From the IMG/VR virus record IMGVR_UViG_3300010403_000003, positions 1 to 64,000 of that record: a stretch of 64,000 bases of DNA; one strand, written 5' to 3'. The position numbers and the translations under genes were made by a program. The DNA is from a virus. Of this stretch, positions 15,041-40,810 are shown piece by piece; position 1 is the stretch's first letter, and every line of letters begins with the position of its first letter. The notes under the pieces were generated by a model that was not told where the DNA came from, made no database searches, and saw only the letters and a program-made list of their open reading frames with translations.

Positions 15041-15368
15041 CGACTTCCTCGATGATGGTCAGTTTCTTCGCTTCGTTGATGTCGAGTTCTTGTTTCTCGA
15101 AATACCCCCGGTCCTTGCCGAGTGTCATGAGCGTCCGGTTGATGGCCCACGGTTCGTTCCTCTTCACGGCCGCGATCAGCCGCAACTCGGCCTCATCGAC
15201 GAACTCGCCGCGCTGCATCTTTATTTCGGCTGCGACCTTCGGGCAAGACTTGGCCCTTAATGAAATCGTTTCATGGTTGCAGCCGAGATGTCGCGCCGCG
15301 AGGTAAACCATTCCCTTCGTGTGCTTTAGGGCGGCGAGTATTTCCTCGTTGGTGTAACGGCGCGCCAT
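14973..15368 (-). CDS. terS: terminase small subunit
   Basis: HTH N-terminus (EILAALKHTKGMVYLAARHLGC), LGKDRGY; immediately upstream of TerL. Confidence 0.75.
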   Translation of the reverse strand: MARRYTNEEILAALKHTKGMVYLAARHLGCNHETISLRAKSCPKVAAEIKMQRGEFVDEAELRLIAAVKRNEPWAINRTLMTLGKDRGYFEKQELDINEAKKLTIIEEVVEPGQGDAADQTLPGASEIPAE

Positions 15369-15414
15369 GGCTTCATAGTAGCGGAAGTAGCGGGATAGGG
15401 ATAGTAATGATTAA

Positions 15415-16297
15415 CTATTCGCTAGGCGATTCTTCAACATCACCCATTTCGACAGGCCCGCACGCCGCCGTCGCTTTCTTGGGGTCGCCCTTGACGAACA
15501 CAAGCACGTTTTGATGCGTCTTGCCAAGCTTCCGCCCGCTCTCGAATTGCCGCCCTACGCGAATCGGCAGGGAGCCAACGGACGTAATGAGGACAGCGTC
15601 ATTGTACAGTTTAGCCCCGGCATCTTGAAACGCCGCTATCGTGTCGCTGATGAAATTTCGGTACATGCCTTTCTTGTCGCGAACATCGCCGACGACGAAG
15701 CACGCGAAGCGGTCCTCGGCCAGCATGGCGACGCTCGCGGCGACGATTTCCCGGTAAGCGGCAAGGAACGCCGCGTAATCGAGCGTTGAAAGGTCCGCCG
15801 GGTCGTCGCTGTAAACCTCAAGATCGGCGTAGGGCGGGCATGAGAAAACGAGGTCGTATTGGCCGGGTGCGAGCGTCGCAACGTTGCGGCTGTCGCCCAC
15901 GATCCATCGCGGCGGGTTCTCGGGCGTGATCGTGGCCGCTTGCTGCTCGTTCGCGGCGATTTGCTCCGGGCGCAGATCGATCCCGGTGTATTTCCGCCCC
16001 AGCTTGGCGGCCACGATGCCGCGCACGGAGCCACCGGCGAATGGGTCGAGGACAGCGCCACCGGGCGGGCAGAACCATCGATAGGCTAACTCACAGAGAA
16101 CGGGGTCGAAGATTGATGTGCCTGATTGCTCAGCGCACATGCCCCCCCCCCCCGATATCTCCACTGGCGATTTTGTCGTTGACCCACTCTCGAGTGTTGA
16201 TGTTGAGGCTTCTTGGCACTTTGCCCCCCCCCTGTTTGAAGTTTGCGGCCAAATCACCAGGAGCTCCGCTGCCAAACGTCCGCGCGTTTTTTCCCAT
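15415..16297 (-). CDS. amino-type DNA methyltransferase catalytic half; frameshifted at a G12 tract
   Basis: GTSIFDPVLCE, VLDPFAGGS (SAM binding), SCPPY (catalytic). The ATG 16297 frame stops just after G12 (16142-16153); G11 would fuse it in frame. Alternative ATG at 16140. Confidence 0.85.
16142..16153 (-). repeat. poly-G12 homopolymer (further G9 tracts at 16224-16232 and 17449-17457; AG repeat at 17364-17376)
   Basis: Counted directly. Confidence 0.95.
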
Positions 16298-16340
16298 CTG
16301 GAGTTGCCCGCTTACGTCTAGGTGCTAAACTCTGGTCACC

Positions 16341-16547
16341 ATGAAACCGCACGAACGCCGCCAATGTGACGCCTATCCCTATTTTAAGCTGGCCGCCTGG
16401 GATGCCCGCTCATTTACGTTTCGCGATGGCAAGCAAGCCCACCCTAGCGAGTCCGCTGCCAAGCAAGAGGCCCGAAAGCCCGGCAAGTATCGCGTGAGCG
16501 TCGTCACCGCCGCAGGGCGAACTGATCTTGAGCCGTTCGCCATTTGA
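16341..16547 (+). CDS. hypothetical protein
   Basis: 68 aa, fills the gap between MTase and PLP genes; TAAACT upstream. Confidence 0.55.
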   Translation: MKPHERRQCDAYPYFKLAAWDARSFTFRDGKQAHPSESAAKQEARKPGKYRVSVVTAAGRTDLEPFAI

Positions 16548-16548
16548 A

Positions 16549-17229
16549 TCACTTCGCGACATTCCAGAACAGTGCCCCCGGCGATGCGTACTGGCGAATA
16601 AACCGCCACGCTTTCGCGTCATAATTCGCGCACGACGGAAATGGCGGCGGATGCTTTGCTGGGTCGTCAAACTTTTCTGGTGCGTTCCAGATTGCCGCCC
16701 GCCCAACATTCGGCATCGCTCCGATTCGCACGGCATGAAAGCGGGCATTCGGCCACGCTTTTTGCAAGCTGAGCGAGAGCGTTCCGCTACCCGCGACAGT
16801 CCAAACCTCGGCCGGCTCTTCGATTTGCTGCGCGAGCTCCGCGATTGCCAAGCGGATCGCCGGCGTATCCAAGCCGAACGGCAGCAACTTCGCCCCGCTG
16901 ACGCTACAATAATCCGCCGCACGCTTGCGGACGACGCTCATATAGCCGGCTGGCCCCACTTCGATGATTTTCGCGCCGGCCGCGATAGCTTCAAGCGTTC
17001 GCGGGTGCTTTGCCTTGCGTGCGGCACAAAAGATCGTTGCACGCTTGCCATAATCGCGGGCGCAATAAGCGAGGGCGACTTGGGCATAGCCTTGAACCGG
17101 CGAGGCATACACATATTCGGAATGCGAATCAAAGAGAATTGGAACGACGCGGGCCTTCGTGCCGCCCTCTACAACGTCGTCGCGAACTACGCGGATGCCG
17201 GCGATGTCGTCAATCCTGACCGGCAGCAT
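16549..17229 (-). CDS. PLP-dependent enzyme, fold type II (ACC deaminase/cysteine synthase-like)
   Basis: VRDDVVEGGTKAR (PLP Lys), VAGSGTL phosphate loop, NYDAKAW. Confidence 0.75.
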   Translation of the reverse strand: MLPVRIDDIAGIRVVRDDVVEGGTKARVVPILFDSHSEYVYASPVQGYAQVALAYCARDYGKRATIFCAARKAKHPRTLEAIAAGAKIIEVGPAGYMSVVRKRAADYCSVSGAKLLPFGLDTPAIRLAIAELAQQIEEPAEVWTVAGSGTLSLSLQKAWPNARFHAVRIGAMPNVGRAAIWNAPEKFDDPAKHPPPFPSCANYDAKAWRFIRQYASPGALFWNVAK

Positions 17230-18061
17230 TCAGCGGCCTACCTTTCCCGTCCCCGCGAACCGTTCGGCCGTCTTTGCCGAGTTTCATTGCCGGCCTTGCG
17301 CTGCCCCCTGGGCATACGCGGCCTTGCGCTGCATCGGGTCGTTGTGCATCGCCATCTTTACCGTCTCTCTCTCTCTGAATATCCGCCAGCGTGCCCGATT
17401 GTTCCGCCTTGTCGCTTGATTGTGGCGGCATCGCTGTAATCGTGGACGCCCCCCCCCGTCCTATTTCGCTTTGAATGCCCAAAGACAGCCACGCCCGCTT
17501 GCGATCCTGCCAATAGCCTTGGCGGGCGTCGAGCACGCTGAAAGGCGGCACAAGAAAGCGGTCAGCCAAAGTCTTTGCGGCCTCAGATGGGTCCATGCCG
17601 CCCCCGCCCTCTTGGCTTGCAAGGATTCCACTGTCCGCTGCCAATCCCGCCAGCATCGCGTTCAAGGCTTCATTGTCCGTCTGGAAGCTATCGAGCAGCG
17701 CTTTAAGCTTTTCAGCATCGGCGGTAGCAAGGGCTGCGAGCGGATCGACGGAGGCCAACATCAACTTCGCCTCCTCATCGTTCAAATCGAGCACTTCGAC
17801 GGTGACCTCCATATCTGGCGTCATCTCCTGCCGCAAATGCCCATCGACAAGCTTCAGCCGCCCATCGGGCAGTTCGTAAGCCAACAGCGACCTGGCAAAG
17901 CCGATCTCGTCGTAAAGCCCTTGGAGTGCGGCTCGTTGCTCGTCGGGATGGCGTCTGAAATTTTGCTCGTGCGGGACAAGATCGCCTGCCCGGATCGTGA
18001 CGTGCCTCTTGATGCGGTTGCGAATTGCGGGTTCTGGTTTCGCGGCTTTCTTGCGTGCCAT
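17210..18061 (-). CDS. ParB/Srx-like domain plus N-terminal portion of a phage DNA methyltransferase
   Basis: LVPHEQNFRRH..IGFA..LVDGHLR; TLADRFLVPPFSVLDARQGYWQDRKRAWLSLGIQSEIGR; TTGAAC-N17-TAGAGT-N7-ATG. Confidence 0.8.
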   Translation of the reverse strand: MARKKAAKPEPAIRNRIKRHVTIRAGDLVPHEQNFRRHPDEQRAALQGLYDEIGFARSLLAYELPDGRLKLVDGHLRQEMTPDMEVTVEVLDLNDEEAKLMLASVDPLAALATADAEKLKALLDSFQTDNEALNAMLAGLAADSGILASQEGGGGMDPSEAAKTLADRFLVPPFSVLDARQGYWQDRKRAWLSLGIQSEIGRGGASTITAMPPQSSDKAEQSGTLADIQRERDGKDGDAQRPDAAQGRVCPGGSARPAMKLGKDGRTVRGDGKGRPLNAAGQD

Positions 18062-18071
18062 AGCCTCAACT

Positions 18072-18443
18072 CTACCGCCCCGCGTCACCGGGTTCAAGTG
18101 GCGAGAGCGTTATGCGATTCCACGCCTGGACTGCTTCGAGCTTGGTTAGCCGGTGCGGCCCCACAAGGCACGGCTTGGGTTCAGCGCATTGCACGAGCCA
18201 ATGGCTCGAACCGTATGACGAAAGATGCGATCGGCCTCCGCAAAACGGACAAGCTTGCGGCGTCGGCTCGGCGTTGGGGTCGGTGGCGGTGAAGCCGTAG
18301 CTAATATGCCAGACTTCGTTTTCACCAAGATCGTCTTCCAGCCAAAGGTGTTCGCCATGCTGGGCAATGACTTTCTTGGGTTTTCCGCTCGCGTGTCCAT
18401 CGACCGTATGCCACACCGTCTGCCCAGGCTTGAACTCGCTCAT
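18072..18443 (-). CDS. Lar-family restriction alleviation-like zinc finger protein
   Basis: QACPFCGG..VQC..C..EAVQAWNR. Confidence 0.7.
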   Translation of the reverse strand: MSEFKPGQTVWHTVDGHASGKPKKVIAQHGEHLWLEDDLGENEVWHISYGFTATDPNAEPTPQACPFCGGRSHLSSYGSSHWLVQCAEPKPCLVGPHRLTKLEAVQAWNRITLSPLEPGDAGR

Positions 18444-39602: not shown

Positions 39603-39649
39603 TTAGCTTCCCAAGCTGGACGTCGTCGGTTCGAATCCGATCGCCCGCT
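39603..39649 (+). other. tRNA-Gly(CCC) 3' half no.1, candidate attP core
   Basis: ttagc TTCCCAA gctgg acgtc gtcgg TTCGAAT ccgat cgcccgc t; no 5' half. Confidence 0.85.
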
Positions 39650-39696
39650 CTGCAAAAGACTTGCGAAGTTTTTCGATGAGGAAAACATTCGAGACC

Positions 39697-40230
39697 CTAA
39701 TGAGAAAGACCGCTCAATTCATTGAATTTCGCCTGGAACGCCGCCGCGGCATCTTCCTTGCTGGCAAAGGAGCCAAGATGGAATTTTTGTTTGTTGGACT
39801 CGATGTCCGCTCGCCAAGAACCTTTGGTCCACCGAACGCCGCGGATACCGCTCGAACTGTTTGCCGGAGCGGATTTCCGATTCAGCATGTTCACGTGATG
39901 AGGCACCGACCGAAGATTAGTTCGTCGATTGTCGAGCGTGTTGTGGTTGATGTGGTCAATGTCCATCCCGGCCGGGAAGCCCATGATAAGCCGGTGCATT
40001 CCGAGCATGCTCTTTTCTGTCGGGGACGGTCTCCCGATCGCATAAAAGGATTTGGTGCAAGGGTTCCATTGGGCGTGCCAGCGCGAGCCGTTGGAAAGGA
40101 CGCGGCTCAAATCGGAAATATCGATGAGGCATTCGAGAATCAGCTTTTCGCATTGGCGTTTCAGAAAAACGACAGCAAAGCCGTCTCGAATCTCAACGGG
40201 GTTACTTCGCTTCGGAAATTGCATCAGCAA
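39697..40230 (-). CDS. HNH-AP2 homing endonuclease
   Basis: MHRLIMG..IDHINHNTLDNRRTNLR, SSGIRGVRW..WRA..HLGSF..AAAA. Confidence 0.9.
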   Translation of the reverse strand: MLMQFPKRSNPVEIRDGFAVVFLKRQCEKLILECLIDISDLSRVLSNGSRWHAQWNPCTKSFYAIGRPSPTEKSMLGMHRLIMGFPAGMDIDHINHNTLDNRRTNLRSVPHHVNMLNRKSAPANSSSGIRGVRWTKGSWRADIESNKQKFHLGSFASKEDAAAAFQAKFNELSGLSH

Positions 40231-40244
40231 ATCCTCTTAGAGCC

Positions 40245-40291
40245 TCGCGTTCCCAACGCGGTGGTCGCCGGTTCAAATCCGGTCGCCCGCT
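40245..40291 (+). other. tRNA-Gly(CCC) 3' half no.2, candidate attP core
   Basis: tcgcg TTCCCAA cgcgg tggtc gccgg TTCAAAT ccggt cgcccgc t. Confidence 0.85.
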
Positions 40292-40341
40292 TTTTCTTTC
40301 AATTGGCTTCGAGCAAATTCGCCGTGAAGTTCCTTCACTTC

Positions 40342-40387
40342 CAACTTTCCCAAAGTCGCTACGAGGGTTCGATTCCCTTCGCCCGCT
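40342..40387 (+). other. tRNA-Gly(CCC) 3' half no.3, candidate attP core
   Basis: caact TTCCCAA agtcg ctac gaggg TTCGATT ccctt cgcccgc t. Confidence 0.85.
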
Positions 40388-40738: not shown

Positions 40739-40810
40739 TTACGGGGGCAGGATTCGCACCTGCGACCTCCAGGTTATGAGCCTGGCGAGCTGCTGCTGCT
40801 CTACCCCGTA
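40739..40810 (-). tRNA. tRNA-Met(CAT), initiator-like, non-canonical
   Basis: TACGGGG TA GAGC AGCAGCA GCTC G CCAGG CTCATAA CCTGG AGGTC GCAGG TGCGAAT CCTGC CCCCGTA A. All four stems pair; no CCA. Confidence 0.8.

What the first reader, a model, noticed from the sequence alone, without database searches (positions are those of the whole stretch)
16120..16297. Poly-G frameshift switch at the start of the methyltransferase catalytic gene
Seen: ATG 16297 gives MGKNARTFGSGAPGDLAANFKQGGGKVPRSLNINTREWVNDKIASGDIGGGG-HVR-stop. ATG to MTase stop spans 883 nt (3n+1), so losing one G from G12 (or from the upstream G9) restores the frame into ..AEQSGTSIFDPV. Known: poly-G tracts of this length drive phase variation of bacterial methyltransferases. 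Inference: a phase-variable phage MTase, assembled here in the OFF state, producing mixed epigenotypes. Caveats: homopolymer sequencing error, or initiation at ATG 16140.
Basis: partly seen in the sequence, partly recalled or inferred. Interest (0 to 1): 0.72.

Follow-up and report, generated by a model that had tools for sequence, protein, structure and literature searches.

The report
Poly-G switch tracts in phage methyltransferase
A run of twelve G's really does break the reading frame between a soil phage's DNA methyltransferase and its conserved N-terminal extension; related phages carry similar slippage-prone G runs at the same linker joints, about half of them out of frame, so this is a known kind of hypermutable switch, here in a multi-tract form, and switching in this phage itself could not be shown.

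Summary
On the minus strand, G12 (16142-16153) and G9 (16224-16232) lie in a 55-aa ORF (16297-16130). That ORF is homologous to the N-terminal extension of related methyltransferases. It is out of frame with the catalytic core (ATG 16140 to stop 15415). G8, G11 or G14 would be in frame.

A third G9 (17449-17457) lies in the upstream ParB-like ORF. These are the only G/C runs longer than 6 in the 74-kb genome.

In 78 related viral loci, G runs of 7 or more are about 65 times denser in the ParB-to-methyltransferase linker than elsewhere. They are always G on the coding strand, and about half are out of frame. Tract lengths differ between close relatives. The tracts are often followed by an in-frame ATG/GTG.

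The predicted fold lies wholly downstream of ATG 16140, so "OFF" may mean core-only rather than no enzyme.

Only assembled contigs were available, not raw reads. They break at G12. An independent soil run shows G8 at the third tract.

Verdict: a hypermutable, contingency-type tract system at module joints. An assembly miscount (true G11) is not excluded. This scan has found similar tracts before on other phage DNA.

The parts
16142..16153 (-). G12 homopolymer at the joint between the N-terminal extension module and the catalytic core. Out of frame as assembled; 8, 11 or 14 G would be in frame.
   Evidence: Relatives have GAG GGC GGC here, in frame. Logan contigs of the source run end at 16153 and 16139.
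16224..16232 (-). G9 homopolymer (codes QGGGK), in frame. It lies at the joint between the ARTFGSG.PGDL module and the SLNINT..EWVN module.
   Evidence: Bridged without variation by the source-run contig.
17449..17457 (-). G9 homopolymer just after the conserved LGIQSEIGR motif of the ParB-like ORF; in frame as assembled.
   Evidence: Homologous site carries G8-G11 in L019, L020, L022-L025, L074-L076. An independent soil run (X3) has a 151-nt contig, otherwise identical, with one G fewer, at depth 3.
16130..16297 (-). 55-aa ORF encoding the N-terminal extension of the methyltransferase (modules ARTFGSG.PGDL and SLNINT.EWVN.KI..GDI); ends 3 codons after G12.
   Evidence: Homology to N-terminal extensions of P0012, P0034, P0101, P0043, P0058 and L028-L060. 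The equivalent region in P0012 is predicted disordered.
15415..16140 (-). Methyltransferase catalytic core (241 aa from ATG 16140) with motif I DPFAGGS and motif IV SCPPY.
   Evidence: PF01555 at 47.2 bits against a cutoff of 26.7. phrog_12517 and phrog_498. PDB relatives 2zie and CcrM. More than 8000 homologs, best about 80% identity.
16116..16140 (-). Local RNA hairpin (6+4 bp) that encloses AUG 16140 and the ORF1 stop UGA (16132-16130).
   Evidence: present in the MFE and centroid structures, but the region's z-score of -0.29 is not significant. Any function is inference only.
16549..17229 (-). PLP fold-type II (PALP) enzyme gene lying between the ParB-like ORF and the methyltransferase ORFs.
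   Evidence: PF00291 weak hit at 23.4 bits, below cutoff. phrog_7093 at 1.4e-36. Homologs adjacent in 32 of 78 related loci. Fused inside the methyltransferase in phages ZS04, R6L and Pam4.
17210..18097 (-). ParB-like N-terminal domain ORF with a linker tail (..RPAMKLGKDGRTVRGDGKGRPL).
   Evidence: phrog_498 profile positions 32-205 and phrog_15396. tblastn to ZS04, Pam4 and Mae-JY30 ParB parts. The tail matches linker peptides of P0056, P0087 and P0025.

Best explanation
G12 is one of three slippage-prone poly-G tracts placed at the joints between peptide modules of a phage ParB-linked N6_N4 DNA methyltransferase system. Tract length decides whether the conserved, probably disordered N-terminal extension (ORF 16297-16130) is fused to the catalytic core. 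At G12, the assembled state, the extension ORF stops 3 codons after the tract. The core can then be made only from ATG 16140, which sits 1 nt after the G run. That could happen by initiation on the G-rich, Shine-Dalgarno-like tract or by termination-reinitiation. At G11, G8 or G14 a single 292-294 aa enzyme is made. DNA-polymerase slippage during phage replication would give mixed populations: extended, core-only, or none if ATG 16140 is not used. Shown: the frame break, the homology on both sides, the non-random tracts, and the family-wide length polymorphism and frame states. Inferred: switching within this phage, use of ATG 16140, and any effect on methylation.
For: Frame break at a conserved module. 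These are the only three G/C runs longer than 6 in 74 kb, all in this module and all G on the coding strand. Family-wide: 57 G>=7 tracts in 29.7 kb of linker against 14 in 476 kb elsewhere, and 34 of 64 tracts are out of frame. One homologous site (GEHVV-Gn-CA[A/G]GGTGA) carries G7 (L004, L005, L037; shifted), G8 (L008 read by eye from the junction codons although one search's ORF heuristic flags it as shifted, L031; in frame) and G9 (L167; shifted). Close relatives differ only in tract length: L011 and L012 are 99.8% identical over 3.6 kb and their sole indel is G9 versus G7; L022-L025 show G11/G9 and G7/G8 within a nearly identical 230-nt stretch. An ATG/GTG in the downstream frame lies within 15 nt of 24 of 55 distinct tract contexts, against 15% for control positions, p=3e-7. 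Homologs that start just before GTSIFDPV exist (P0010, P0088). The AlphaFold model of P0012 has residues 1-84 below pLDDT 55 and the core above 90. Source-run Logan contigs end at the tract, and X3 shows G8 at the third tract. Precedents: phage contingency loci, Fletchervirus polyG tracts, and a polyG tract in the BPP-1 methylase gene, as summarised in 10.1101/2025.10.21.683753.
Against: There are no raw reads, so no tract-length distribution exists for this phage; contig breaks can come from poly-G sequencing errors. The X3 variant rests on one contig at depth 3. No near-identical copy of this phage was found in the viral or metagenome contig collections. Relatives that carry the same SLNINT module have no homopolymer at this joint, so this particular tract is lineage-specific. 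SD-like motifs are not frequent upstream of this genome's ORFs in a crude census, which weakens the reading of the G run as a ribosome-binding site. Related loci are not phylogenetically independent, so the p-values are indicative only.
Confidence: 0.55

Rival explanations
1. Homopolymer miscount in the assembly: the true tract is G11 (or G14), and the gene is an ordinary intact 293-aa methyltransferase with a Gly-rich linker.
For: Illumina-type assemblies are unreliable at G12. Independent Logan contigs of the source run fail to bridge this tract alone while bridging both G9 tracts. All relatives with this module are in frame here.
Against: Out-of-frame states are common at shorter, reliably sequenced G7 tracts in relatives. 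The two Logan contig ends both carry 12 C's, as aligned. Even if the count is wrong, an 11-12 nt homopolymer remains a hypermutable site.
Confidence: 0.2
2. Stable gene fission with translational coupling: the extension peptide and the catalytic core are two fixed overlapping genes (AUG 16140, UGA 16132-16130). The G run serves as ribosome-binding sequence and no switching is involved.
For: G tracts followed by in-frame ATG/GTG are enriched. Two-gene ParB/methyltransferase forms with ATGA-type overlaps exist in isolate prophages without long homopolymers (L036, L041, L044). Core-only homologs exist. A hairpin encloses the AUG and the stop.
Against: The break falls inside a module that is continuous in every relative that carries it, not at a usual fission point. 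A 12-nt homopolymer is far longer than any ribosome-binding site needs. Tract lengths vary between near-identical relatives.
Confidence: 0.15
3. Programmed recoding: +1 ribosomal frameshifting on GGG codons, or RNA-polymerase slippage on the G12/C12 template, makes the full-length enzyme from a fixed G12 genome.
For: tRNA-Gly can re-pair perfectly in any frame on a G run. Long homopolymers give measurable transcriptional slippage (general knowledge; review PMC5009743 listed). A hairpin follows the tract.
Against: The out-of-frame state is not conserved. Homologous sites are in frame or out of frame in different relatives, and relatives with this module lack the tract. No Rfam element was found. 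The downstream fold is not more stable than shuffles.
Confidence: 0.07
4. Decay: the extension ORF is a dying remnant and the locus is drifting toward a pseudogene or a minimal methyltransferase.
For: The frameshift itself. Minimal 236-241 aa homologs exist.
Against: Both sides of the break keep conserved residues with no other lesions. Three long tracts sit at module joints on one strand in an otherwise tract-free genome, which points to selection rather than decay.
Confidence: 0.03

Closest known systems
Phage contingency loci / hypermutable polyG tracts: Fletchervirus receptor-binding genes, T2/T4 homopolymers, and the polyG tract in the methylase gene bpm of Bordetella phage BPP-1 (as summarised in bioRxiv 10.1101/2025.10.21.683753)
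   Same: A G homopolymer inside a phage coding region whose length sets the reading frame. Slippage is expected to give mixed phage populations.
   Different: BPP-1 Bpm is a beta-class enzyme without a ParB partner. It has a G8 tract in the middle of the gene and shares only motif I with this protein. Here there are three tracts at module joints of a ParB-linker-methyltransferase system. The out-of-frame state leaves a complete catalytic ORF with its own ATG. No switching has been measured.
Phase-variable bacterial DNA methyltransferases (Type III mod phasevarions; homopolymer-containing Type I/II genes of Neisseria, Haemophilus, Helicobacter, Campylobacter)
   Same: A simple-sequence repeat in the 5' part of a methyltransferase gene toggles translation of the enzyme (established knowledge; e.g. 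PMC6902483 and PMC9577141, listed).
   Different: Those are host genes of restriction-modification systems that control regulons. This is an orphan phage enzyme next to the terminase genes, and the repeat separates a disordered extension from the core rather than truncating the enzyme.
ParB-CTPase-fold + N6_N4 methyltransferase fusions of phages and plasmids (PHROG 498; survey PMC12704722; ParB-methyltransferases M.EcoGIX/M.BceJIII in PMC7736820)
   Same: A ParB-like N-terminal domain, a variable linker and a PF01555 catalytic domain. phrog_498 matches both window ORFs.
   Different: Here the unit is split into at least three ORFs with a PLP-enzyme gene inserted between them. The survey text does not mention frameshifts or homopolymers (term 'frameshift' 0 occurrences).

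Membership tests
N6_N4 DNA methyltransferase (PF01555) / PHROG 498 ParB-methyltransferase | Profile match above the curated cutoff | tested here: met
   PF01555 at 47.2 bits against a cutoff of 26.7. phrog_498 at 5.4e-83 over profile positions 357-613.
N6_N4 DNA methyltransferase (PF01555) / PHROG 498 ParB-methyltransferase | AdoMet motif I (FxGxG) and catalytic motif IV (D/N/S)PP(Y/F/W) | tested here: inconclusive
   Motif I DPFAGGS is present. Motif IV reads SCPPY: PPY is invariant in 101 homologs, but Cys occupies the usual D/N/S position. Motif order is I before IV.
N6_N4 DNA methyltransferase (PF01555) / PHROG 498 ParB-methyltransferase | ParB-like N-terminal domain in the same protein | tested here: not met
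   The ParB-like part is a separate ORF (18097-17210), with a PLP-enzyme gene in between. Pfam PF02195 gave no hit at E<=0.01, but phrog_498 positions 32-205 and phrog_15396 match.
N6_N4 DNA methyltransferase (PF01555) / PHROG 498 ParB-methyltransferase | DNA methylation activity and target base | not testable with these tools
   Needs expression plus SMRT or Nanopore methylome analysis.
Contingency locus (simple-sequence-repeat phase variation) | Long homopolymer inside or at the 5' end of a coding region, over-represented against the genome background | tested here: met
   G12, G9 and G9 are the only G/C runs longer than 6 in 74 kb. Enrichment in the linker of relatives is 65-fold.
Contingency locus (simple-sequence-repeat phase variation) | Length changes move the gene in and out of frame | tested here: met
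   In silico lengths 8-15. Natural relatives occur in both states.
Contingency locus (simple-sequence-repeat phase variation) | Tract length differs between otherwise near-identical genomes | tested here: met
   L011 G9 versus L012 G7, 99.8% identical. L022-L025. Window G9 versus X3 contig G8 at 17449, at depth 3 only. Not shown for the G12 tract itself.
Contingency locus (simple-sequence-repeat phase variation) | Length heterogeneity within one population, with high and reversible switching rate | tested here: inconclusive
   Only assembled Logan contigs were available. They break at G12.
Programmed ribosomal frameshift / transcriptional slippage site | Out-of-frame arrangement conserved among relatives | tested here: not met
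   Homologous sites are in frame or shifted in different relatives. Relatives with the same module lack the tract and are in frame.
Programmed ribosomal frameshift / transcriptional slippage site | Stimulatory RNA structure beyond chance | tested here: inconclusive
   A 10-bp hairpin starts 1 nt after the tract, but the region's z-score is -0.29. No Rfam match.

The most novel reading that the evidence does not exclude
The poly-G tracts are not simple on/off switches. They are joints of a combinatorial system in which each tract serves as Gly linker, slippage site and ribosome-binding or restart signal, and also as microhomology for gain and loss of short peptide cassettes. In L022/L024 a cassette is bounded by Gn-CG repeats and is absent from L023/L025. 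Phages of this family could then rapidly re-wire which linker modules are fused to the ParB domain or to the methyltransferase core. Together with the frequently associated PLP enzyme, this could change how or where their DNA is modified.
Probability: 0.25. Interest if true: 0.65.

Novelty: new variant of a known kind. Interest (0 to 1): 0.45.

Why it matters
If the tracts do switch, a temperate soil phage and many relatives hedge their bets on the form of their self-protective DNA methyltransferase: tethered or extended, core-only, or absent. That would create epigenetically mixed virions and affect which restriction systems they survive. The multi-tract, module-joint arrangement with a restart codon after the tract goes beyond the single-tract examples reported for phages. 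It offers many natural alleles for testing how homopolymers mediate gene fusion and fission. It also bears on annotation: gene callers report these enzymes as truncated or split proteins.

Tried and rejected
1. A pattern scan for the G12 flanks with a variable gap found nothing in viral contigs. In metagenome contigs it gave 27 hits, all chance matches in unrelated genes. No second copy of this phage was obtained.

2. The look-up of sequencing runs and read laying gave only Logan contigs, not raw reads. Small-share runs X2 and X4 do not cover the tracts and say nothing about them.

3. BPP-1 bpm was tested as a homolog and rejected. It shares only the motif I region (E 7e-8 over 30 residues) and belongs to a different class.

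4. The original BPP-1 paper (PMC344406) is not held, so its claim is cited only through the preprint.

5. The promoter and terminator scan of 15200-18400 found nothing above shuffles. The one 'terminator' at 17444-17461 is the C9 tract itself, on the non-coding strand.

6. The Rfam search found no match.

7. Literature searches for a described ParB-methyltransferase poly-G linker or a ParB/methyltransferase/PLP trio found nothing specific.

8. The small antisense ORF at 16341-16547(+) has no PHROG hit and was not pursued.

Full report
**The sequence**

The window belongs to a 74,016-bp, 58% GC contig whose ends overlap by 124 bp. This looks like a complete soil-metagenome phage genome.

On the minus strand the region contains, in order:
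- a ParB-like ORF (18097-17210);
- a PLP fold-II enzyme gene (17229-16549);
- a 55-aa ORF (16297-16130);
- a PF01555 methyltransferase core (ATG 16140 to stop 15415);
- a 131-aa ORF and the large terminase.

**Is the frameshift real?**

Yes, relative to homologs. Many relatives of the core (up to about 80% identity) carry N-terminal extensions. Several of these (P0012, P0034, P0101, P0043, P0058, and loci L028, L036, L041 and L060) read ..SLNINT.EWVN.KI..GDIEGGM(S/C)A.Q(S/T)GTSIFDPV in a single frame. In the window the same module is encoded by the 55-aa ORF. It is cut off from the core exactly at the tract.

Relatives have GAG GGC GGC (9 nt) where the window has G12 plus C (13 nt). Lengths of 8, 11 or 14 G would therefore be in frame. 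Shortening the upstream G9 also opens a full ORF, but it replaces the conserved module with unrelated residues.

**Is the tract more than chance?**

The genome has only three G/C runs longer than 6. They are G12, G9 and a further G9 at 17449-17457, just after the LGIQSEIGR motif of the ParB-like ORF. All three lie within 1.3 kb and all are G on the coding strand. GGG is only 21% of Gly codons elsewhere in the genome. Each tract sits at a joint between recognisable peptide modules.

**Relatives**

Figures for the 78 IMG/VR loci and the prophage/MAG loci:
- G runs of 7 or more occur at 1.9 per kb in the ParB-to-core linker (57 tracts in 29.7 kb). Elsewhere the rate is 0.03 per kb (14 in 476 kb). 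In the linker they are always G on the coding strand.
- By an ORF-continuity test, 34 of 64 tracts are out of frame.
- At one homologous site (GEHVV-Gn-CA[A/G]GGTGA), G7, G8 and G9 all occur and only G8 is in frame. For L008 the in-frame reading was made by eye from the junction codons, because one search's ORF heuristic flags that tract as shifted (its contig starts just upstream).
- L011 and L012 are 99.8% identical over 3.6 kb. Their only indel is G9 versus G7.
- In L022-L025 a nearly identical 230-nt stretch is bounded by tracts of G11/G9/G9/G9 and G7/G7/G8/G8. A short cassette bounded by Gn-CG repeats is present in two of the four loci and absent in the other two.
- In 51 prophage or MAG loci from bacterial genomes, tracts are rarer (5). 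They sit at the same site and 4 are out of frame.

Length polymorphism and both frame states are therefore natural in this family. They include G7 tracts, which short reads sequence reliably.

**A design feature**

An ATG or GTG in the downstream coding frame lies within 15 nt of 24 of 55 distinct tract contexts. Control positions give 15% (p=3e-7; the loci are related, so this is indicative only).

In the window, ATG 16140 lies 1 nt after G12. The 55-aa ORF stops 8 nt downstream of that ATG. A small hairpin encloses both, although the region does not fold better than shuffled sequence.

Homologs that begin just before GTSIFDPV exist (P0010, P0088). An AlphaFold model of homolog P0012, built from a 101-sequence alignment, has residues 1-84 below pLDDT 55. 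The core from GTSIFDPV onward is mostly above 90, except a 266-270 loop and the C-terminal tail.

The out-of-frame state therefore still encodes a complete catalytic domain with its own start. Whether that start is used is inference. SD-like motifs are not frequent in a crude census of this genome's ORFs.

**Read-level evidence**

Only Logan contigs were available. In the probable source run, two contigs (depth 15-16) end at 16153 and 16139. They fail to bridge G12 while bridging both G9 tracts. An independent 2025 soil run has a 151-nt contig, otherwise identical, with G8 instead of G9 at 17449, at depth 3. This fits length heterogeneity, but it fits poly-G sequencing trouble equally well. 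No second copy of the phage was found in the contig collections.

**Interpretation**

The best-supported reading (about 0.55) is a contingency-type set of hypermutable tracts at module joints. The G12 tract toggles the enzyme between an extended form and a core-only form, or no enzyme. As assembled, it is out of frame.

The rivals are:
- an assembly miscount with a true G11 (0.2);
- fixed gene fission with translational coupling (0.15);
- programmed recoding (0.07), disfavoured because the out-of-frame state is not conserved and no RNA element was found;
- decay (0.03).

**Comparison with what is known**

Homopolymer phase variation of bacterial methyltransferases is established. For phages, polyG tracts in Fletchervirus receptor-binding genes, contingency loci in T2/T4, and a polyG tract in the BPP-1 methylase gene are on record (10.1101/2025.10.21.683753). 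BPP-1 Bpm is not homologous beyond motif I.

ParB-fold fusions to N6_N4 methyltransferases are known to be common in phages (PMC12704722), and phrog_498 spans both window ORFs. I found no paper describing poly-G joints in this linker. That is absence of a hit, not proof of novelty.

Earlier notes of this scan report similar poly-G or poly-C tracts in ParB-methyltransferase linkers on other phage DNA. I treated them as leads only, and the counts here are my own. I rate this a new variant of a known kind, of moderate interest.

Noticed in passing
window 16549-17229 (-); L002 2059-4497; L003 2038-4527; L001 2145-4463: A PLP fold-II enzyme (phrog_7093, 'threonine dehydratase'-like) travels with the ParB/methyltransferase pair. 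It is adjacent in 32 of 78 related viral loci, in varying positions (between ParB and methyltransferase as here, or downstream). In Erythrobacter phages ZS04/R6L and Pseudanabaena phage Pam4 it is fused in frame inside the methyltransferase, between the motif I region and motif IV. Combined with the unusual motif IV (SCPPY), this hints at chemistry beyond plain methylation. No literature was found.
   Followed up: partly
L022 3798-3900 vs L023 1237-1265 (alignment): A cassette of about 50 nt in the linker is bounded on both sides by Gn-CG and is present in L022/L024 but absent from L023/L025. The poly-G tracts may also act as microhomology for cassette gain and loss. This would explain the mosaic order of linker peptide modules seen among homologs.
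   Followed up: partly
L018 pos 5, L049 pos 1, L054 pos 1; window 16139-16153 in run X1: Several independent assemblies end exactly at a poly-G tract of this linker. The tracts are systematic assembly breakpoints, through heterogeneity or read errors.
   Followed up: no
window 16341-16547 (+): A 68-aa ORF lies antisense in the 250-nt gap between the PLP gene and the methyltransferase ORF. It has no PHROG hit, so whether it is a real gene is unknown.
   Followed up: partly
window 17444-17461: The third tract is flanked by a 5-nt inverted repeat (GGACG..CGTCC) and scores as a terminator-like hairpin on the non-coding strand. This is probably incidental.
   Followed up: no
window 39605-40387 and 40739-40810: ARAGORN finds a single tRNA-Met gene at 40739-40810. 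tRNA-Gly(CCC) reads the GGG codons of the tracts, so a link is conceivable but was not examined.
   Followed up: no
genome ends (C1:1-124 = 73893-74016): The contig's first 100+ bases recur at its end (124-bp overlap). This indicates a circular or terminally redundant complete assembly.
   Followed up: partly
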